Part shown: one piece after another, positions 30,491-41,958 of the stretch
Layout of the letters: the number at the start of each line of letters is the position of its first letter
Position numbering within the stretch: the stretch's first letter is position 1
Assembly: GCA_963662265.2 (NCBI GenBank)
Contig: CAXXHA010000001.1
Span: 247,672 to 311,671, forward strand
Direction: 5' to 3'
From: Spirochaetia bacterium
GTDB taxonomy: Bacteria; Spirochaetota; Spirochaetia; CADAEX01
Length of the DNA stretch: 64,000 nucleotides
Program-made: the position numbers and the translations under genes
Notes under the pieces: model-generated
Database searches by the model: none
What the model was told of the DNA's origin: nothing
What the model saw: the letters and a program-made list of their open reading frames with translations, nothing else

Positions 30491-30620
30491 AATTTCTCCA
30501 GTATATAACATACTATAATCAAATTATTATTCCAGTATCATTAAAAATGCAATTAAATATTAAATATTTCAGTACAGTTCTCTTGACAACAATTACCTGC
30601 CGGGTATAGCATGTTGCTGT

Positions 30621-30758
30621 ATTTTTCGGGGCAAGGTGAGCTCATCTTAATGAAGAGCAATTCCTGACCGGCGGTTAAAGCCCGCGACTCTTCCTTACGG
30701 AAGATTGAATCGGTGAAATTCCGATGCCGACGGTACAGTCCGGATGGGAGAAGAAAAA
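30621..30758 (+). ncRNA. FMN riboswitch (RFN element)
   Basis: TTCGGGGCAAGGTGA...AATTCCTGACCGGCGGTTAAAGCCCGCGA...GGTGAAATTCCGATGCCGACGGTACAGTCCGGATGGGAGAAGA upstream of the rib operon; TTGACA at 30583. Confidence 0.97.
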
Positions 30759-30784
30759 TATTTGTCTTTCCATGAATTAATTAC

Positions 30785-35441: not shown

Positions 35442-36662
35442 TCAGTCAGGATACTTGTTTCTGACAGCATTTAGAAGATCAACTATTTCAAAGAAAACAT
35501 CGACAAGCTCAGGATCAAATTTACTCCCTGAGAGTTTTCCTATCTCTTCAAGAACATCATTCTCATTCCACGCATCCTTATATGCACGCTTTGAGTTCAA
35601 TGCATCAAATACATCGGCAATTGCAACGATTCTCCCGAATATACTTATTTCATCCCCTTTTCGGGGAACTGCTTCTCCTGATTCTGCTGTTTTTAAAGGC
35701 ATTCCTGTCTCAACATCAACATAGCCGGGATATCCGGTACCGTTCCAGTTTTCATGATGAGTCAGCGCAACATCAGCAGATATCTCGTCAAGCAGAGAAT
35801 GTTTGTTCTTGAAAAGACCCGCCCCGATATATGTATGACTCTTCATTACAGAATATTCATCATCTGTAAATCGTGCAGGTTTCTTGAGAATTGTATCAGA
35901 AATCGCAATCTTTCCCACATCGTGAAGCATAGCCGCTATCCTGAAAACGTCCCTTGTTTTTTCAATTTCATCTTCAGAATAACCTTTTTTTCTGGCCCAG
36001 CTCTCATATATTTCCACAGAATATGAAGCTACCCTGTTTACATGGGCCCCTGTCTCCTTGGGATCCCGGAGCTCCGCCATCTTTATCATCCTGAGGACCA
36101 GTGACCTTGTCATCTGTGCACGCTGAAGAACAATACTTGCAGAACTTGCAAAGTGGTTGATATAAAGCTCATCCTCATCTGAAAATTTTGTAATCTCCCC
36201 ATCAGGTGTAACTGCATTTATCATCTGGAGAACGCCGAGTACTTCTCCTGTTAAGTCTTTGAGCGGAAATGTGAGCATTGAATGTGTTTCATAACCAGAT
36301 TTTTTATCAAATGTGGAATCAAAATGATATGGATGGTCATCCCCTATAGTATATACATCATCAATACATAGAGTTTCCCCGGTAAAAGCCACATAACCGG
36401 CAATAGACTGCCTGTTTACCGGAACTTTAAATGAATTATATATGAGTTTTTTACCGTAGGGGAGTTTTTTCTGTTTCGTGTCGTTCTGGGCATGGGCAAA
36501 AACCAGGAAATCACCCTCTTTAAGGTAAATTGTGCCTGCATCCGCACTCACGAATTTCCGGGCTTCAAGCAGTATTCTTTCAAGAAGGATATCCACATCC
36601 TGTACAGTGTTGAGTTCTGTTCCAAGCTGAAGAACTTTTTTCAGTTTTTCATTTCCATCCAT
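35442..36662 (-). CDS. GAF + HD-GYP phosphodiesterase
   Basis: GAF N-terminus, ETGAHVNRV, LHDVGK, HHENWNGTGYP and IADVFDAL..KRAYK motifs. Confidence 0.92.
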   Translation of the reverse strand: MDGNEKLKKVLQLGTELNTVQDVDILLERILLEARKFVSADAGTIYLKEGDFLVFAHAQNDTKQKKLPYGKKLIYNSFKVPVNRQSIAGYVAFTGETLCIDDVYTIGDDHPYHFDSTFDKKSGYETHSMLTFPLKDLTGEVLGVLQMINAVTPDGEITKFSDEDELYINHFASSASIVLQRAQMTRSLVLRMIKMAELRDPKETGAHVNRVASYSVEIYESWARKKGYSEDEIEKTRDVFRIAAMLHDVGKIAISDTILKKPARFTDDEYSVMKSHTYIGAGLFKNKHSLLDEISADVALTHHENWNGTGYPGYVDVETGMPLKTAESGEAVPRKGDEISIFGRIVAIADVFDALNSKRAYKDAWNENDVLEEIGKLSGSKFDPELVDVFFEIVDLLNAVRNKYPD

Positions 36663-36812
36663 AATTTGCTGAGCCTTTATTTATTATTGCGTCAGAAAGT
36701 ATAATGTGTCAAATCTCTTTTTGATATTTCGGTTTTATAAAATTAAAGTATTTAAAGAATATTCAAATACTTTATTGACAATTGACCGCCACTCTATAAT
36801 AATCGAAATAGG

Positions 36813-37322
36813 ATGTTTAAAAATAAAGAGACTATTGTCAAATATTTAAGAGAAAATACTGTTTTACGTTCAATAGAAGCCCCGGAAATCGGGAAATTCA
36901 TTGATACAGGCGGAATCAATTTCTATAACGAAAATGATCATATACTGACAGAAGATGATGCAGGAAATACAATCTACTTCATTATCAATGGTAATGTAGA
37001 TGTTATAAAAAGTGAAGAGGCAAAGGAAGTCTATATCTGCACACTAGGTACAGGTGAGTTTTTCGGAGAAGCCGGGCTGTTCACGACAATGAAGAGATCA
37101 GCAACAGTGAGAGCTTCTTCAGATACATCAATCCTGAAAATAGACAGGGGGAATTTTGTATCTTTTATAAAAGCAAATCCCTCTTCCGGTATTAAAATAC
37201 TGATGCTGATTATTTACAGCCTTCTCAAAAAGCTTAAAACTGTGAACGCTGAACTTGCTTTTGAGAGAAAACTTGATATCGGTCAGGATGATATAGATGC
37301 TCTCATCAATTCCCTGCTGTAA
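36813..37322 (+). CDS. Cyclic-nucleotide-binding domain protein (no HTH evident)
   Basis: GEFFGEAGL...RSATVRA phosphate-binding cassette. Confidence 0.85.
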   Translation: MFKNKETIVKYLRENTVLRSIEAPEIGKFIDTGGINFYNENDHILTEDDAGNTIYFIINGNVDVIKSEEAKEVYICTLGTGEFFGEAGLFTTMKRSATVRASSDTSILKIDRGNFVSFIKANPSSGIKILMLIIYSLLKKLKTVNAELAFERKLDIGQDDIDALINSLL

Positions 37323-37436: not shown

Positions 37437-38999
37437 CTATTGTATATAATGGCAGCCTGTAGAACGTTTATTACGTATTGCAGCGCCTACAATCAGCGAT
37501 GAACAGACTGACGCGTTTCTGAGTTCAATAATACCTGTATTCAGCTTTGCCTGCTGATAAAATTTAATAATCCTGTGTGAATAGTAATTAAGGTCAGCTT
37601 TTGCCCTCTCAAGCCCTTTTCGGGTCCTTATAATCCCTGCATAGTTCCACATTGTCAGCTGTATTGCCTTCATATCCTGATCAACGAGCAGCGGATCAAA
37701 AACCTGGTTTCTCTGTGGATCTTTCCAGTCGGGAATACGCCCTACCCGGCTGATATCAACTTCCTTATTATCACGGATTATTGAATCAGCGGCTCTCTTG
37801 CCCCATAAAAGGCCTTCGAGAAGAGAAGTGGATGCAAGCCTGTTTGAACCGTGAAGCCCTGTACAGCTTACCTCCCCCACAGCATAGAGATTCTGAAGGG
37901 AAGCCTTCCCGTCAATTCCAACCTTAATACCGCCGCAGAAATAATGTGCTGCAGGTACTATCGGAATCATCTCCCTGGAGATATCGACTCCCCCCTTATT
38001 ACAGGTCTGGTAAATCTTTGAAAACCGCTTCTGAATCGGAGGCTTACCGTCATAATAATTAAAAAGATCAAGAAACATATATTCCTGGCCAGTTTTAGCC
38101 ATTCTGTCGAAGATAGCACGGGCAACAACATCCCTGGGCGCAAGATCCTTGAGAGGGGAGTAATCTTTCATAAACTCATACCCGTCATGATCCTTAAGCC
38201 TGGCACCTTCACCTCTCAAAGCTTCTGAAATAAGAAACCGTTTTACATCTTTGTTGAAAAAGGATGTCGGGTGGAACTGCACAAACTCAGCATTAATAAT
38301 GTCGGCACCTGCCTTATATGCCATGCTGAGTCCGTCACCGGTGGCTGAATCAGGATTTGTCGTATACTGGTAAATATTCCCTAGTCCCCCTGTCGCAAGA
38401 ACAACAGAACCTGAGAAGAAAGTATCAACCTCGCCAGTCTGGTTATTGAGAGCATAAATACCCATGACTTCCCTGGGCTTATACATTTCCTGTGTATCAT
38501 TTGAATGATGGTTGTTTGTTATTATATCTACAGCAGTATAGTTGCAGGCAATCTTGATACCCAGCTTCTCTGCATATTTAATAAGCTCAAGTTCAATCTT
38601 GTCGCCTGTATGATCCTCATAATGGACAATACGCCTCACCTGGTGGGCAGCCTCTTCAGTGTAATCTATTTCTCCAAGCTCATTTTTACTGAATTCAATT
38701 CCTGCTTCATTAATCAGAAAATCAAAAACAAGCTGGGGCCCCTCCTTTGCAAAGACCTCAACTGCTTCCATCCTGTTATACTCATTGCCTGCAAGCAGTA
38801 CATCTTCTTTCAGCATCTCAGGAGTATCTGTTTCCCTTGAAGCTATAATACCACCCTGGGCATAATATGTATTTGATTCCTCAGGTCTTGCTGTTTTAGT
38901 CAAAACAGCAACATTCAGTCCAGCCTTCTTTAAATATATTGCAGATGTCAGACCGGCTATCCCGGATCCGACAATTATCGCCTCGTAATAATATCTCAT
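37437..38999 (-). CDS. nadB: L-aspartate oxidase
   Basis: GSGIAG, YAQGGI, QFHPT, LISEALRGEG, LAPRDVVAR, HYFCGG and GLHGSNRLASTSLLEG motifs. Confidence 0.96.
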   Translation of the reverse strand: MRYYYEAIIVGSGIAGLTSAIYLKKAGLNVAVLTKTARPEESNTYYAQGGIIASRETDTPEMLKEDVLLAGNEYNRMEAVEVFAKEGPQLVFDFLINEAGIEFSKNELGEIDYTEEAAHQVRRIVHYEDHTGDKIELELIKYAEKLGIKIACNYTAVDIITNNHHSNDTQEMYKPREVMGIYALNNQTGEVDTFFSGSVVLATGGLGNIYQYTTNPDSATGDGLSMAYKAGADIINAEFVQFHPTSFFNKDVKRFLISEALRGEGARLKDHDGYEFMKDYSPLKDLAPRDVVARAIFDRMAKTGQEYMFLDLFNYYDGKPPIQKRFSKIYQTCNKGGVDISREMIPIVPAAHYFCGGIKVGIDGKASLQNLYAVGEVSCTGLHGSNRLASTSLLEGLLWGKRAADSIIRDNKEVDISRVGRIPDWKDPQRNQVFDPLLVDQDMKAIQLTMWNYAGIIRTRKGLERAKADLNYYSHRIIKFYQQAKLNTGIIELRNASVCSSLIVGAAIRNKRSTGCHYIQ

Positions 39000-40081
39000 T
39001 GTTCTTCAACTATTTTTATCATCTGGTCAAGCGCCTTGAGAGCATTGCCTCTGAATTCATCTTTGACAGAAACAGGGTACAGAAGTTCACCTTTTCCCTC
39101 TTCATAAAGCTCTACAGAGTTAAGTGATTCTGCGAGGTTTTTCATTGTTATCTTGCTCATATTGCCGCAGAATGAGGTCCTTATGGGAACAATTGTCATT
39201 TTCCTGAATTCCTCAGCCAGTCTCTCGACAAATTTCGCCTCTGTTGCTATTCCCCAGACAGAACCGGAAGGAGATTCCTTTACAACATTGTAGATTTTCT
39301 GTGTGGAACCGTGCATATCTGCAAGCTTTTCCACAGAAGGATCAACTTCCGGATGAACAATTATTTTCCCGGAAGGATGATTTTTCCTGAAATCAGCAAT
39401 ATCGTTTTTCAGGAATTCCTGATGCACATGGCAGAAACCGTCCCAGAGAAATACCTTGACATCTTCAGGATTACCGTTGAAATCTATTGAAAGATCATTC
39501 CTGATGAGAGCTGTCTCATTTTCCTTAAGCCTGAGTGCATTTGAAATATTGGTTCCGAGATTTGCATCGGGAAAGAAAAATACTCTCTTACCCCTGTCCA
39601 GGTAATATTTAAGAATTTTCTCGGCATTTGAACTTGTACAGACAGCACCTCCGTACTCCCCGCACAGGCTTTTTGAATCTGCATACGAGTTCATGTAAAC
39701 AACAGGTACCGGCTTTTCCCCTGTATATTTTTCCGCTTCAGCAAGGGCCTTTCTTCCCGATTCAATATCTGCCATATCAGCCATAGGGCAGCCTGCTGAA
39801 AGATCGGGAATAAGCACCTTTTTATCAGGTGAAAGAATATCAACCCCCTCAGCCATGAATCTTACTCCGCAAAAGACAACCCATTCAGCATCGCATCGTG
39901 TTGCATCAACTGCAAGTTTGTATGAATCTCCCGAAACATCTGCAAACTGAAAAACGTCAGAACTCACATAATAATGAGCAGGAATCAGGAGTCTTTTCCC
40001 GAACCTTTTTTTAATATCATTGATATAGCTCTTAAGCATATCTTCATTGTAATTGTCGAAATCAATTTTTCCGGCACACAT
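38996..40081 (-). CDS. nadA: Quinolinate synthase
   Basis: AHYY, FCGVRFMAE, AGCPMA, YMNS, CTSSNA, CHVH, HPE and CGNM motifs. Confidence 0.95.
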   Translation of the reverse strand: MCAGKIDFDNYNEDMLKSYINDIKKRFGKRLLIPAHYYVSSDVFQFADVSGDSYKLAVDATRCDAEWVVFCGVRFMAEGVDILSPDKKVLIPDLSAGCPMADMADIESGRKALAEAEKYTGEKPVPVVYMNSYADSKSLCGEYGGAVCTSSNAEKILKYYLDRGKRVFFFPDANLGTNISNALRLKENETALIRNDLSIDFNGNPEDVKVFLWDGFCHVHQEFLKNDIADFRKNHPSGKIIVHPEVDPSVEKLADMHGSTQKIYNVVKESPSGSVWGIATEAKFVERLAEEFRKMTIVPIRTSFCGNMSKITMKNLAESLNSVELYEEGKGELLYPVSVKDEFRGNALKALDQMIKIVEEQ

Positions 40082-40095
40082 CAATAATCCTCCGA

Positions 40096-40983
40096 TTAAC
40101 CTTTCTTAAGGCTGAAATCAAATGCCTTAATAGTATGTGTAAGTTCTCCGAAAGAGATGTAGTCAACACCTGTTTCGGAAACCTCTTTTATTCGTTCAAA
40201 ATTCATATTACCTGAAGCTTCAGTTTCAGATTTTCCGCCAATAAGCTTTACTGCTTCTGCAGTTTCTTCATTGCTCATATTATCAAGCATAATTCTGTCA
40301 GCTCCTGCAGAAAGAGCTTCCCTGACCTCTGCAAGTGTCCTGGCTTCTATTTCAATTTTAACCTTTCCGCCCCATTTTTCTTTAATCCTGCCGGCTGCAG
40401 CTGTTATGCTTCCTGCAGCATCTATATGAGTATCTTTTATCATGGCCATATCATAAAGGCCTGTCCTGTGATTTGATGCGCTGCCGCATTTTACAGCATA
40501 TTTGGAAAGTGACCTGAAGCCTGGAATAGTTTTTCTCGTATCGAGAACAACTACTTTTCCGCCTGCCTGCTGCATGAAAAGGTATGCTTTTGTCGATATT
40601 GCGGAAAGAAGGGAAATAAAGTTGAGAGCGGTCCGCTCCCCTTTAAGTATTGAAACAACTCTGCCGTCGATAGAGGCTATTCTGTCGCCCTTATTAATTC
40701 TGTTTCCGTCGCTGAAATGTTTTACAATCCTGACTGAACTGTCTACAGTATGAAACACCCTGGTAAAGGTATCAATACCGCAGAGAATGCCGGAATCTTT
40801 TGAAAGAAGATAGTAGGATCCTTCTTCATCAGTGAAAACTGCTTCTGATGTTACATCATGTCCGGCACAGTCTTCAGGTGCCTCGGAGGCAGATTTTCCT
40901 GGATCAAAACCGGATAAATAGCGGCTTCCGAAATCCTCTTCAAGCGCCAGTTTAATAAGTAATTCTTCGTTGTCCAGAGGCAT
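40096..40983 (-). CDS. nadC: Quinolinate phosphoribosyltransferase
   Basis: ERTALNF, DTRKT, NHR, IKDTH, IMLDN and EASG motifs. True start is ATG 40983, 7 nt after AAGGAG; the ORF-track extension is translated leader RNA. Confidence 0.95.
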   Translation of the reverse strand: MPLDNEELLIKLALEEDFGSRYLSGFDPGKSASEAPEDCAGHDVTSEAVFTDEEGSYYLLSKDSGILCGIDTFTRVFHTVDSSVRIVKHFSDGNRINKGDRIASIDGRVVSILKGERTALNFISLLSAISTKAYLFMQQAGGKVVVLDTRKTIPGFRSLSKYAVKCGSASNHRTGLYDMAMIKDTHIDAAGSITAAAGRIKEKWGGKVKIEIEARTLAEVREALSAGADRIMLDNMSNEETAEAVKLIGGKSETEASGNMNFERIKEVSETGVDYISFGELTHTIKAFDFSLKKG

Positions 40984-40991
40984 AAACAAAC

Positions 40992-41148
40992 TCCTTGGCA
41001 GATGCCTCAAAACCTTTACAGGTTTTCTCATTCGACATCATGCATACAGGAATCGCTCTTTGGGGATTCCTTGGCAGATGCCTCAAAACCCTGCCGGGTT
41101 TTCTCATTCAGCATCATGCATACAGGAATCGCTCTTTGGGGATTCCTT
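40992..41148 (-). ncRNA. Tandem 2 x 76-nt structured leader upstream of nadC-nadA-nadB (candidate riboswitch)
   Basis: 76-bp period, 70/76 identity, all differences compatible with the predicted stems; fills the 5' UTR between promoter and SD. Confidence 0.7.
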
Positions 41149-41159
41149 AAAGTCAGTCT

Positions 41160-41188
41160 ACTTTAGTCCTTTTGATGGTAATTGTAAA
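41160..41188 (-). promoter_or_regulatory. Probable promoter of nadCAB
   Basis: Minus strand TTTACA (41188-41183), 17 bp, TAAAGT (41165-41160), which places +1 near 41153. Confidence 0.5.
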
Positions 41189-41274
41189 GAGATCAGGATT
41201 TATTAAAAACAAGATGGAAAAAAGCATATAATAATTACATATTCTTATCTCTTATAAAGAAACTATGAGAATTA

Positions 41275-41958
41275 TTAAGATCCTGTATATTCCCCCTGTA
41301 TCATGTGTCTTTTCTTCCCATACCCTTTCTTTCTTTTTATGAAAAAACCAGCCTCCCTGAGTCCTTTCTTGACATCACCCTTTGATGTATATGTGGCTAG
41401 AGTAGTCCCTTTGTGCGACTTATTACCAACAAGGCTGAAAATATCGCTGCTCCACATATCAGGGTTTTTTTCAGGGTCATGGCCGTCAAGAAACCAGACA
41501 TCCCTTTTTTCTCTGATGGAAGGAAGACCGGAAGATGCATCCCCGTAATAATAGGTCAGCCGGATTTTAATTGAGAAGAGTTCAAACTCAAAACTGTTCA
41601 ACCCGGGAGAAACAGAACCGTAGACATCTTTGTAGACATCCATGTATTCTGAAAGGATTGCTTTTTTTTCACAGAAGAGAGGATCAAGTAGTTTTTCAAC
41701 CTGCTCCGGTGTCAGCGGATATTTTTCACAGCTGAAATAATCAAGAATCCCGGAATATCCCCTTATTGTTCTCCCTATATAATCACAGAGAGCAAGAAAA
41801 TTAAGCCCTGTTCCAAATCCGGTTTCACCCGCATATATATCATCGGTTGGAGAAAAACGGTCTATCCTGTTGCCTTCAACAAATACCCAGAGAGATTCCT
41901 CAAGCCCCCCCTCTGTGCTGAAGAAACAGTCATTGTAATAAGGATTAAAGTTATCCAT
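41275..41958 (-). CDS. mnmD: tRNA (mnm5s2U34) methyltransferase MnmD (stand-alone MnmC methyltransferase domain)
   Basis: YNDCFFS, GETGFGTGLNFL, WFLDGHDPEKNPDMWS and GYGKKRHM motifs. Confidence 0.88.
   Translation of the reverse strand: MDNFNPYYNDCFFSTEGGLEESLWVFVEGNRIDRFSPTDDIYAGETGFGTGLNFLALCDYIGRTIRGYSGILDYFSCEKYPLTPEQVEKLLDPLFCEKKAILSEYMDVYKDVYGSVSPGLNSFEFELFSIKIRLTYYYGDASSGLPSIREKRDVWFLDGHDPEKNPDMWSSDIFSLVGNKSHKGTTLATYTSKGDVKKGLREAGFFIKRKKGYGKKRHMIQGEYTGS

What the first reader, a model, noticed from the sequence alone, without database searches (positions are those of the whole stretch)
40984..41188. Tandem 76-nt structured leader with an anti-SD register switch in front of nadC-nadA-nadB: candidate NAD-pathway riboswitch
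Seen: the nadC 5' UTR (predicted +1 near 41153, SD AAGGAG at 40996-40991) is almost entirely two 76-nt units. The distal unit reads AAGGAAUCCCCAAAGAGCGAUUCCUGUAUGCAUGAUGCUGAAUGAGAAAACCCGGCAGGGUUUUGAGGCAUCUGCC, and the proximal unit differs at only 6 positions. All 6 keep the hand-predicted fold. GAUGCU and GAUGUC both pair with GGCAUC (C-G/U-G swaps). AAAACCC-GGCA-GGGUUUU becomes AAAACCU-GUAA-AGGUUUU (C-G to U-A covariation, G-N-N-A loop kept). The purine-rich internal loop GAAUGAG/GA and the CCCAAAGAGC segment are invariant. The SD sits where a third unit would begin (AAGGAGUU vs AAGGAAUC). GAUUCCU can therefore pair locally with its own AGGAAUC (SD free), or with the next unit's AGGAAUC and the AGGAGUU SD (7 bp, SD blocked). 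Established: NAD+-I (nadA motif) riboswitches are tandem and translational, and NAD+-II (pnuC motif) riboswitches also exist. From memory I do not recognise either consensus here. Inference: a new or highly divergent tandem sensor for NAD+/NMN/NaMN/quinolinate, or a binding site for a regulatory protein.
Basis: partly seen in the sequence, partly recalled or inferred. Interest (0 to 1): 0.9.

Follow-up and report, generated by a model that had tools for sequence, protein, structure and literature searches.

The report
Dispersed structured RNA repeat, not NAD-specific
The two 76-base units in front of nadC are real, folded RNA modules, but they belong to a small repeat family that also sits in front of unrelated genes in this spirochaete and one sister species, so they are unlikely to be a sensor dedicated to NAD.

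Summary
Window 40997-41148 (- strand) is two 76-nt units differing at 6 positions. They lie between a promoter-like site and the AAGGAG Shine-Dalgarno (SD) of nadC-nadA-nadB. No Rfam family matches.

The element is not NAD-specific. The same unit occurs 14 times at 6 loci in this genome. It abuts the AAGGAG SD of a secreted protein and a response regulator, lies in an ankyrin gene's leader, and forms three non-leader arrays. One sister species has it before nadC; a second sister has the same promoter and SD with no units. Four other loci are empty in both sisters.

The fold has covariation support: 13 of 23 pairs show compensatory changes and 96.3% of cells pair. The nadC units are 80-86% identical between species, while fourfold sites of nadC are saturated at 34.8%.

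Best reading: a lineage-restricted, modular cis-acting RNA element that spreads between leaders, read by an unknown factor. An NAD riboswitch is unlikely (about 5%).

The parts
41160..41188 (-). promoter-like site TTTACA-17 nt-TAAAGT; predicted +1 about 41153, some 5 nt before unit 1
   Evidence: 9 of 12 consensus matches; a consensus match only. The same hexamers stand before nadC in G001 and G002.
41073..41148 (-). unit 1 of the 76-nt module. P1 is 41147-41141 with 41130-41124. P2 is 41119-41110 with 41082-41074. P3 is 41102-41096 with 41091-41085.
   Evidence: CM R2 scores it 95.0 bits, E 4.4e-19.
40997..41072 (-). unit 2 of the 76-nt module; 6 differences from unit 1, all keeping the fold
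   Evidence: CM R2 scores it 95.3 bits, E 3.6e-19.
41131..41140 (-). P1 loop CCCAAAGAGC of unit 1. It is the best-conserved unpaired stretch of the family. RNAalifold adds a C-G pair that closes a CAAAGA hexaloop.
   Evidence: Alignment A4: 11 of 17 units have exactly this loop, read. Extra pair at columns 10-17.
41055..41064 (-). P1 loop CCCAAAGAGC of unit 2
40991..40996 (-). Shine-Dalgarno AAGGAG, starting at the base after the last unit, where a third unit would begin
   Evidence: The same junction (unit end directly followed by AAGGAG) is seen in the P0001 and response-regulator leaders and in G001 nadC.
40096..40983 (-). nadC (quinolinate phosphoribosyltransferase), 295 aa from ATG 40983
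   Evidence: The start agrees with the orthologues. The longest ORF, from ATG 41031, begins inside unit 2 and is probably an over-extension.
38996..40084 (-). nadA (quinolinate synthase)
   Evidence: NadA 6.2e-86.
37437..38999 (-). nadB (L-aspartate oxidase type flavoprotein)
   Evidence: FAD_binding_2 3.6e-76, Succ_DH_flav_C 1.2e-4.

Best explanation
The two units are copies of a small, lineage-restricted family of structured RNA modules.

Each module of about 76 nt has two hairpins. P1 is 7 bp and carries a nearly invariant 10-nt loop, CCCAAAGAGC. A short conserved linker (YGWAUGCA) leads to a second hairpin, in which P2 and P3 are separated by a purine-rich asymmetric internal loop.

Modules occur singly or as 2-4 head-to-tail copies. 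Every array starts at the same phase, the 5' arm of P1. In mRNA leaders the arrays end directly against an AAGGAG Shine-Dalgarno.

The family is not tied to NAD. One array entered the nadC leader before this species and one sister split. It has been kept since by selection on the RNA fold. Other copies were added later, in this lineage only, to the leaders of unrelated genes and to non-leader intergenic sites.

Inferred mechanism (not shown): the array is transcribed as almost the whole 5' UTR and acts in cis after transcription. A stable folded module sits about 5 nt from the 5' end, and another sits flush against the SD. Together they set ribosome access and/or mRNA lifetime. A trans-acting factor probably reads the invariant P1 loop and internal loop. 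I judge a protein more likely than a metabolite.

Tandem copy number changes by slippage or unequal exchange between the AAGGA-type unit starts. It is not a fixed two-domain sensor.
For: Family and distribution:
- CM R1/R2 and BLAST find 14 units at 6 loci in G000.
- The 6 loci are: nadC leader (2 units); leader of P0001, a 374-aa protein with a signal-peptide-like start and no Pfam family (3 units); leader of a response-regulator gene (1 unit); leader of an ankyrin-repeat gene (about 1.5 units); a 4-unit array antisense between two genes; and a 3-unit diverged array near groEL.
- G001 has 3 units before nadC and 1 intact unit followed by a terminator-like hairpin.

RNA structure:
- 96.3% of 356 cells pair.
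- 13 of 23 pairs have changes on both sides.
- 0 of 500 shuffles reach any of the five measures.
- Slid controls pair at 23-53% with 3-4 such pairs.
- RNAalifold returns the same helices.
- G-U outnumbers A-C 20 to 5 in paired cells, which favours the gene-sense strand.

Selection:
- G000 and G001 nadC-leader units are identical at 61-65 of 76 positions.
- Fourfold sites of nadC are identical at 39 of 112 (34.8%).
- An 86-nt stretch upstream of the promoter aligns at 49 of 86.
- The differences are compensatory (G-C to A-U in P1; P3 re-paired) or lie in loops.
- Arrays in the same genome are only 45-86% identical to each other, yet they still pair.

SD adjacency:
- In 4 of 4 intact leader arrays the last unit is followed at once by AAGGAG (G000 nadC, P0001 and response regulator; G001 nadC).

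Gains:
- The orthologous sites of P0001, the response regulator, the ankyrin gene and the 4-unit array are empty in both G001 and G002.
Against: - No expression data exist, so transcription, the 5' end and the strand are all inferred.
- Three of 8 loci (G000's six plus G001's two other intact or decayed sites) are antisense to their neighbours. They have no promoter-like site on the unit's strand. A purely leader-based function does not explain them.
- One G001 copy lies just after a stop codon and is decayed.
- G002 needs no unit for nadC.
- Predicted SD accessibility varies from 0.32 to 0.77 among leaders, with no common switch.
- No trans factor has been identified.
- Only two species carry the family, so the copies are related. 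The alignment was also fitted to the model, and both facts inflate the covariation counts (caveats).
- Conservation between species could partly reflect conversion among copies rather than host-level function.
Confidence: 0.5

Rival explanations
1. The family is a selfish or neutral small interspersed repeat, in the manner of pneumococcal BOX elements, ERIC or REP. The hairpins serve the element's own spread or are tolerated. Its effect on nadC is incidental: a structured insertion in the leader that the cell lives with.
For: - Presence/absence at orthologous sites: 4 G000 loci are empty in both sisters, and nadC is empty in G002.
- Arrays have defined ends and a common starting phase.
- Units occur in both orientations relative to neighbouring genes and in 3' positions.
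- Tandem number is variable and includes a 76-nt-shorter allele.
- Decayed copies exist.
- The 4-unit array is 94-100% identical within itself, so it was amplified recently.
- BOX elements likewise carry variable tandem boxB modules, fold as RNA and can alter neighbouring gene expression (PMC3049150, passages seen).
- Y1 transposase genes (PF01797): 3 matches in G000, 5 in G001, and 1 weak match in G002.
Against: - There are only 6 loci, and no near-identical master copy exists. The best between-array identity is 86% across species (G000 nadC versus G001 nadC) and 84% within G000 (nadC versus P0001). So divergence happened after insertion while pairing was kept.
- The nadC array was retained at 80-86% identity while synonymous sites saturated.
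- All four intact leader arrays end exactly at the SD.
- There are no terminal inverted repeats or boxA/boxC-like end modules (read).
- No transposase gene is adjacent. The nearest Y1_Tnp match is about 9 kb from the C39 array.
Confidence: 0.27
2. The unit is a small-molecule riboswitch aptamer. Either it senses NAD+ or a precursor, and the other copies are spill-over. Or it senses a global signal that links the different downstream genes.
For: - It has covarying helices with conserved unpaired nucleotides in a loop, a linker and an internal loop, the usual signature of an aptamer.
- Its position against the SD resembles translational riboswitches. The nadA-motif class is also tandem with the RBS in a helix of domain 2 (PMC6859854, passages seen; PMC7708056, abstract).
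- The nadC copy is the only leader copy shared by both species.
- No 3H-domain (NiaR-type) protein was found in G000, which is 90.6% complete. Nothing tested here supplies another NAD regulator.
- In this nadC leader the minimum-energy fold pairs the last unit's 3' P1 arm with the SD.
Against: - Gene association is incoherent: 1 of 4 leader gene sets is NAD-related.
- G002 lacks the element before nadC.
- Copy number varies between 1, 2 and 3.
- Non-leader and antisense copies keep the fold.
- There is no match to any Rfam model at E<=10.
- The ACANCCCC bulge between coaxial helices that defines the nadA motif (PMC7297122 abstract) is not present.
- The register switch is not conserved.
Confidence: 0.12
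3. The repeats act as double-stranded DNA. The inverted repeats would be operators for a transcription factor that sits downstream of the nadC promoter.
For: - P1 is a 7-bp inverted repeat with a 10-bp spacer, placed a few bases after the predicted +1.
Against: - The arms covary instead of being conserved: GGAAUC/GAUUCC, GAAAUU/AAUUUC and GGAGUU/AACUCC occur within one genome.
- G-U pairs outnumber A-C pairs 20 to 5, an asymmetry that double-stranded DNA would not show.
- Copies lie in 3' and antisense positions, away from promoters.
Confidence: 0.04

Closest known systems
NAD+-I riboswitch (nadA motif)
   Same: - Tandem, similar stem-loop domains in the leader of an NAD biosynthesis operon.
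- The ribosome binding site lies at the 3' end of the last domain.
- Control is translational (PMC6859854, passages; abstracts).
   Different: - No covariance-model match.
- No ACANCCCC bulge.
- Each unit here is two hairpins, not one bulged stem-loop.
- The nadA motif is reported only upstream of nadA, in Acidobacteria. This element precedes unrelated genes, in a spirochaete.
- The units here are near-identical repeats with variable number.
Pneumococcal BOX elements (boxA-boxBn-boxC) and similar small interspersed repeats (ERIC, RUP, SPRITE)
   Same: - Dispersed intergenic copies.
- A variable number of tandem internal modules.
- Predicted RNA stem-loops.
- Length variation between strains.
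- Reported effects on neighbouring gene expression and transcript stability (PMC3049150, passages).
   Different: - No sequence relation.
- No terminal A/C modules or inverted ends.
- Only 6 loci, against many copies in the pneumococcus.
- Leader copies end exactly at the SD.
- The orthologous nadC array has been conserved far beyond the neutral expectation.
Tandem riboswitch or aptamer architectures in general
   Same: Repeated, similar structured domains in one leader; conserved unpaired nucleotides with covarying helices (PMC9481103, abstract only).
   Different: - Known tandem aptamers have a fixed number of diverged domains and coherent gene associations.
- Here the number varies from 1 to 4.
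- Copies within an array are homogenised: 75-100% identical within intact arrays.
- The downstream genes are unrelated.
CsrB/RsmZ-type multi-site decoy RNAs with CsrA-type leader sites (comparison recalled, not from a call)
   Same: The same short module occurs both in mRNA leaders overlapping or abutting the SD and in multi-copy stand-alone arrays. GGA-containing purine loops are present in several units.
   Different: - The invariant loop is CCCAAAGAGC, not a GGA loop.
- The G000 nadC units have no GGA in the internal loop.
- No promoter-like site was found for the stand-alone arrays.
- Binding was not tested.

Membership tests
NAD+-I riboswitch (nadA motif) | Match to the family's covariance model | tested here: not met
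   cmscan of 40900-41300 on both strands against all 4227 Rfam 15 families at E<=10 returned only snoR25, CRISPR-DR60 and MIR7991, with E 3-7.9. The whole window at gathering thresholds returned only FMN. That Rfam holds a nadA model is my recollection.
NAD+-I riboswitch (nadA motif) | [quoted passage not shown] | tested here: not met
   The unit is two separate hairpins. Its run AAUCCCC spans the 5' arm of P1 and the hairpin loop; it is not a bulge between helices.
NAD+-I riboswitch (nadA motif) | Found exclusively upstream of nadA/NAD genes (PMC6859854 abstract) | tested here: not met
   Only 1 of 4 leader-associated gene sets in G000 is NAD-related. The others are P0001 (no Pfam family), a response regulator and an ankyrin protein. 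Three further loci are not leaders.
NAD+-I riboswitch (nadA motif) | The last domain's helix sequesters the ribosome binding site | tested here: inconclusive
   The minimum-energy fold of the G000 nadC leader pairs the 3' arm of P1 with the SD. The other three leaders do not. SD unpaired probability is 0.32-0.77. These are predictions only.
NAD+-II riboswitch (pnuC motif) | Match to the family's covariance model | tested here: not met
   Same searches, no match. That Rfam holds the model is recalled.
Riboswitch (any class) | Direct, selective binding of a small molecule that changes the fold and expression | not testable with these tools
   Needs in-line probing or ITC and reporters.
Riboswitch (any class) | Conserved unpaired nucleotides framed by covarying helices | tested here: met
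   13 of 23 pairs are compensatory and 96.3% of cells pair. The P1 loop is identical in 11 of 17 units, and the linker and the first G of the internal loop are conserved.
BOX-type small interspersed repeat | Multiple dispersed intergenic copies, with presence/absence between related genomes | tested here: met
   6 loci in G000. Four are empty in both G001 and G002, and nadC is empty in G002.
BOX-type small interspersed repeat | Variable number of tandem internal modules | tested here: met
   Arrays have 1, about 1.5, 2, 3, 3 and 4 units. One 207-nt contig of run X10 skips exactly 76 nt, from 41020 to 41097 (a single contig at depth 2.25).
BOX-type small interspersed repeat | Distinct terminal modules (boxA, boxC) with inverted-repeat ends (PMC3049150) | tested here: not met
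   Arrays begin directly with the 5' arm of P1 and end with the 3' arm of P2. No shared flanking module is visible in the 8 junctions read.
REP / RAYT system | Y1 (RAYT) transposase gene flanked by the repeats; many short GC-rich palindromes | tested here: not met
   PF01797 matches lie at C39:58668-59024, C35:213443-213787 and C29:88580-88918. The nearest unit array, C39:67904-68131, is about 9 kb away. The unit is 76 nt, 34-53% G+C, and occurs at 6 loci.
PyrR binding site (RF00515) | Match to the covariance model | tested here: not met
   In G000 the best matches are 29.7 and 26.6 bits, against a gathering score of 54 bits, and both lie at other places. None falls on a unit. There is no match in the region.

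The most novel reading that the evidence does not exclude
The module would be a new kind of portable riboregulator. It is a compact two-hairpin RNA domain, read by a lineage-specific protein or a small molecule. It copies itself next to Shine-Dalgarno sequences and so recruits new genes into a post-transcriptional regulon: nadCAB first, then a secreted protein, a response regulator and an ankyrin protein. Stand-alone arrays would act as decoys or small RNAs. If so, these two species show a regulon being assembled by the spread of a cis-RNA element.
Probability: 0.2. Interest if true: 0.7.

Novelty: new member of a known kind. Interest (0 to 1): 0.4.

Why it matters
This removes a tempting but probably wrong call of a third NAD riboswitch class. 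The association with nadCAB is one instance of a wider repeat family.

What remains is modestly interesting. The repeat is unannotated and confined to two related spirochaete species. It is clearly shaped by selection on RNA structure. In four of four intact leader arrays it ends exactly at the ribosome binding site. It has also been gained at several genes since two species split. If a factor reads its invariant loop, it would be a rare natural case of gene regulation spreading by duplication of a cis-acting RNA module.

There is also a practical point. The repeat misleads ORF callers: the longest nadC frame starts inside unit 2. It also breaks short-read assemblies, since contigs end within it.

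Tried and rejected
- Known RNA families. The whole window at gathering thresholds and the 401-nt region at E<=10 gave no relevant family.
- PyrR lead. I recalled a likeness between the apical hexaloop of P1 and PyrR binding loops. RF00515 in G000 gave only two sub-threshold matches elsewhere, so I dropped it.
- NiaR-type repressor. No PF02829 match in G000, which is 90.6% complete. This neither supports nor excludes other NAD regulators; NadR and NrtR were not searched.
- Wider distribution by CM:
  - R1 on 61 genomes matched 2, counting G000.
  - R2 on the 20 genomes of the family matched 3 at E<=0.05. The third is a 23.6-bit match in G008 whose alignment lacks P2, and I count it as chance.
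  - R2 on 151 genomes of the class matched only G000 (strict filters, 31 candidates scored per genome).
- Wider distribution by pattern:
  - A degenerate pattern covering 12 of the 17 aligned units (checked by hand, not by a call) found only one other record in genome contigs. It is a 3.79-Mb Spirochaetia MAG chromosome, presumably G001.
  - It found 2 stretches in metagenome contigs and 2 in viral contigs. Neither metagenome stretch scores with R2 (the best match is E 0.23, and it lies beside the pattern match), and the viral stretches give no R2 match.
  - blastn against plasmids found nothing.
- Extra copies in G000. A script for P1-like hairpins found 27 candidates among 1416 loop-motif occurrences. 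Fifteen are the known units. The other 12 look like chance, and C40:34283 lies in the start region of a gene on the other strand.
- Expression. No RNA holder was listed among 12 runs. Contigs laid on the stretch break inside the repeat in all four runs. Nothing can be said about transcription.
- Register switch as a conserved mechanism. It was seen only in the G000 nadC fold.
- Stand-alone arrays as small-RNA genes. No promoter-like site was found on the unit's strand at the three loci scanned. One has a terminator-like hairpin right after the unit. This stays open.
- Orthology of the groEL-neighbourhood copies. They lie on different sides of a small gene in G000 and G001, although they are each other's closest relatives at 79%.
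- Literature. Two full-text searches on NAD riboswitches and BOX elements, and one on spirochaete interspersed repeats, stem-loops and SD (20 papers held 3 of the 4 terms, 8 were listed, none relevant by title or abstract). These searches turned up no description of this element. That is weak evidence that none is in print. Supplements were not consulted.
Full report
WHAT IS THERE.
On the - strand the nadC leader reads as follows: a promoter-like TTTACA-17-TAAAGT (41188-41160), about 12 bases, then two head-to-tail 76-nt units (41148-41073 and 41072-40997), then AAGGAG (40996-40991) and ATG (40983). Tandem Repeats Finder reports period 76, 2.1 copies, 92% matches and score 272. Each unit folds alone into the same two hairpins, with z -2.9 and -3.7 against shuffles. 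The genes that follow are nadC, nadA and nadB. No Rfam family matches, at gathering thresholds or at E<=10 on the region alone.

THE UNIT IS A FAMILY, NOT A nad FEATURE.
A similarity search of the window's own genome (G000, 41 contigs, 90.6% complete) found the tandem element on two other contigs. Covariance models built from the units (R1; R2) find 14 units at six loci:
- Locus 1: the nadC leader, 2 units.
- Locus 2: C39:67904-68131, 3 units ending directly at AAGGAG-N7-ATG of a 374-aa protein (P0001). It has a signal-peptide-like start and no Pfam family.
- Locus 3: C35:5349-5423, 1 unit ending directly at AAGGAG-N7-ATG of a response-regulator gene.
- Locus 4: C32:134972-135050 plus a partial second unit, in the leader of an ankyrin-repeat gene.
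- Locus 5: C32:115701-116008, 4 nearly identical units starting right after the stop codon of a DUF5612/ACT gene, in antisense orientation to both neighbours.
- Locus 6: C32:172010-172216, 3 diverged units antisense to their neighbours, near groEL.

A script for P1-like hairpins found no further convincing copy.

DISTRIBUTION.
- Sister species G001 has 3 units before nadC, the last with an internal deletion. It also has one intact unit followed by a terminator-like hairpin between groEL and a small gene, one decayed copy just after a stop codon, and one marginal match.
- Sister species G002 has none.
- Nothing convincing was found in the other 17 genomes of the family, in 150 other genomes of the class, or in 59 further relatives.
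- A degenerate pattern scan of 185,579 species genomes returned only one other record, titled as a Spirochaetia MAG.
- Pattern matches in metagenome and viral contigs do not fit the model. Plasmids gave nothing.
- These searches have limited sensitivity, so I say 'not found in those searched'.

THE FOLD IS SELECTED, AND ON THE GENE-SENSE STRAND.
- On the 17-unit alignment, 96.3% of 356 cells pair and 13 of 23 pairs carry changes on both sides.
- None of 500 column shuffles reaches the observed values. Sliding the partners by 1-3 columns drops pairing to 23-53%, with 3-4 such pairs.
- RNAalifold returns the same three helices, plus a C-G pair that closes a CAAAGA hexaloop inside the P1 loop.
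- Examples within one genome: P1 is GGAAUC/GAUUCC, GAAAUU/AAUUUC or GGAGUU/AACUCC; P2 is GAUGCC/GGCAUC, AACACU/GGUGUU or GUUGCC/GGCAAC.
- G-U pairs outnumber A-C 20 to 5. This points to the strand that matches the downstream genes in the leaders.
- Unpaired nucleotides are conserved. The P1 loop is CCCAAAGAGC in 11 of 17 units, and the linker and the first G of the internal loop are also conserved.
- Caveats: the alignment was fitted to the model, the copies come from two genomes, and tandem copies are not independent.

HISTORY.
The three species share the nadC promoter hexamers and the AAGGAG SD, but G002 goes from promoter to SD in about 13 bases with no unit. At the orthologous sites of P0001, the response regulator, the ankyrin gene and the 4-unit array, both G001 and G002 are empty. 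By protein identity G002 is the outgroup. These four are therefore most simply gains in the G000 lineage, and nadC is an older gain shared with G001. The response-regulator and nadC sites already had AAGGAG in the empty state, and the unit lies immediately 5' of it. At P0001 the sisters have GAGGTG or AGAGGT where G000 now has AAGGAG. All arrays begin at the same phase, the 5' arm of P1 (A-R-G-R-A-A-U-Y). This arm resembles the SD, so each leader array is flanked by two AAGGA-like words. That would make slippage or unequal exchange easy. It fits the variable copy number and the one contig in run X10 that skips exactly 76 nt (a single low-depth contig). How copies reach new sites is unknown. 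Y1 transposase genes are present (3 matches in G000, 5 in G001, 1 weak in G002), but none is next to a unit.

IS IT FUNCTIONAL OR JUNK?
The strongest argument for function comes from the comparison between G000 and G001.
- Fourfold-degenerate sites of nadC are identical at 39 of 112 (34.8%), which is saturated.
- An 86-nt stretch above the promoter aligns at 49 of 86.
- The leader units are identical at 61-65 of 76.
- The differences are compensatory or lie in loops.
- Within G000 the arrays are only 45-86% identical to one another, and there is no near-identical master copy. Yet they still pair, so structure was kept after insertion.

Against a purely leader-based function:
- Three loci are antisense to their neighbours and have no promoter-like site on the unit's strand.
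- One copy lies in a 3' position and is decayed.
- G002 does without the element.

I therefore put a cis-acting, post-transcriptional RNA module read by an unknown factor first (0.5). A selfish or neutral interspersed repeat of the BOX/ERIC kind comes second (0.27).

WHY NOT AN NAD RIBOSWITCH.
- The gene association is incoherent.
- Copy number is not fixed.
- One congener lacks the element before nadC.
- The defining features of the nadA motif are absent. These are the covariance model, the ACANCCCC bulge, and exclusive nadA association (abstracts and passages).
- The proposed register switch is not conserved. It is the minimum-energy fold in this nadC leader only. Predicted SD accessibility ranges from 0.32 to 0.77 in four leaders. 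The G001 arm, AAGAAAUC/GAUUUCU, is a poor SD mimic and anti-SD.
- A riboswitch for some other ligand cannot be excluded. No NiaR-type protein was found, so another NAD regulator is not in evidence. I give all small-molecule readings 0.12 and the NAD-specific one about 0.05.
- A double-stranded DNA operator is unlikely, because the arms covary and G-U pairs are favoured.

HOW IT PROBABLY WORKS (inferred).
Transcription from the conserved promoter puts P1 of unit 1 about 5 nt from the 5' end. The base of P2 in the last unit lies one or two bases from the SD. The invariant loop and internal loop suggest a reader, either protein or ligand, that shifts this balance. None of these steps is shown, and there is no RNA run for this organism.

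LIMITS.
- Only two species carry the element.
- There are no expression data.
- CM searches scored only part of the first-look candidates.
- Supplementary files of papers were not consulted.

Noticed in passing
window 30618-30759 (+): FMN riboswitch (RF00050), 100.9 bits against a gathering score of 66.2, E 3.1e-22. It is the only Rfam match in the window at gathering thresholds.
   Followed up: no
window 40984-41031 (-): The longest nadC ORF starts at an ATG inside unit 2, 16 codons upstream and in frame. The orthologues start at the ATG at 40983. Automatic annotation may over-extend nadC into the repeat.
   Followed up: partly
window 40970-41206 (+); L003 1633-1983 (+): ORFs of 78 and 116 aa run antisense through the repeat arrays. 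They are probably artefacts of the repeat, as is reported for BOX elements (PMC3049150).
   Followed up: no
G000:C32:172605-174258 (-): groEL appears as two overlapping frames (172810-174258, 482 aa, and 172605-172994, 129 aa) in G000, while G002 has one 550-aa frame. This is a frameshift or an assembly error near the 3' end.
   Followed up: no
G000:C39:58668-59024 (+): A strong Y1 transposase match (144.8 bits) with one internal TAG, about 9 kb from the 3-unit array. Two weaker matches with 161-162-aa open frames lie elsewhere. G001 has five and G002 one weak match.
   Followed up: partly
L002 2002-2418 (-) = G000:C39:68480-68896: A YopX-family (phage-type) gene lies about 350 nt upstream of the 3-unit array before P0001.
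   Followed up: no
window 35442-37322: Just beyond nadB lie a GAF + HD/HD_5 domain protein (- strand) and a cNMP-binding-domain protein (+ strand). These are signalling genes with no shown link to the repeat.
   Followed up: no
window 41009-41149, metagenome runs X1, X3, X6: Short contigs carry unit-like sequence joined to flanks that differ from the nadC locus (loose ends). These may be the other arrays of this genome, or further copies in related strains.
   Followed up: no
G001:C1:625542-625614 (-) and G000:C32:172010-172216 (+): The copies near groEL are each other's closest relatives (79%), but they lie on opposite sides of the same small gene in the two species. Either the copy moved locally or there were two insertions.
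   Followed up: partly
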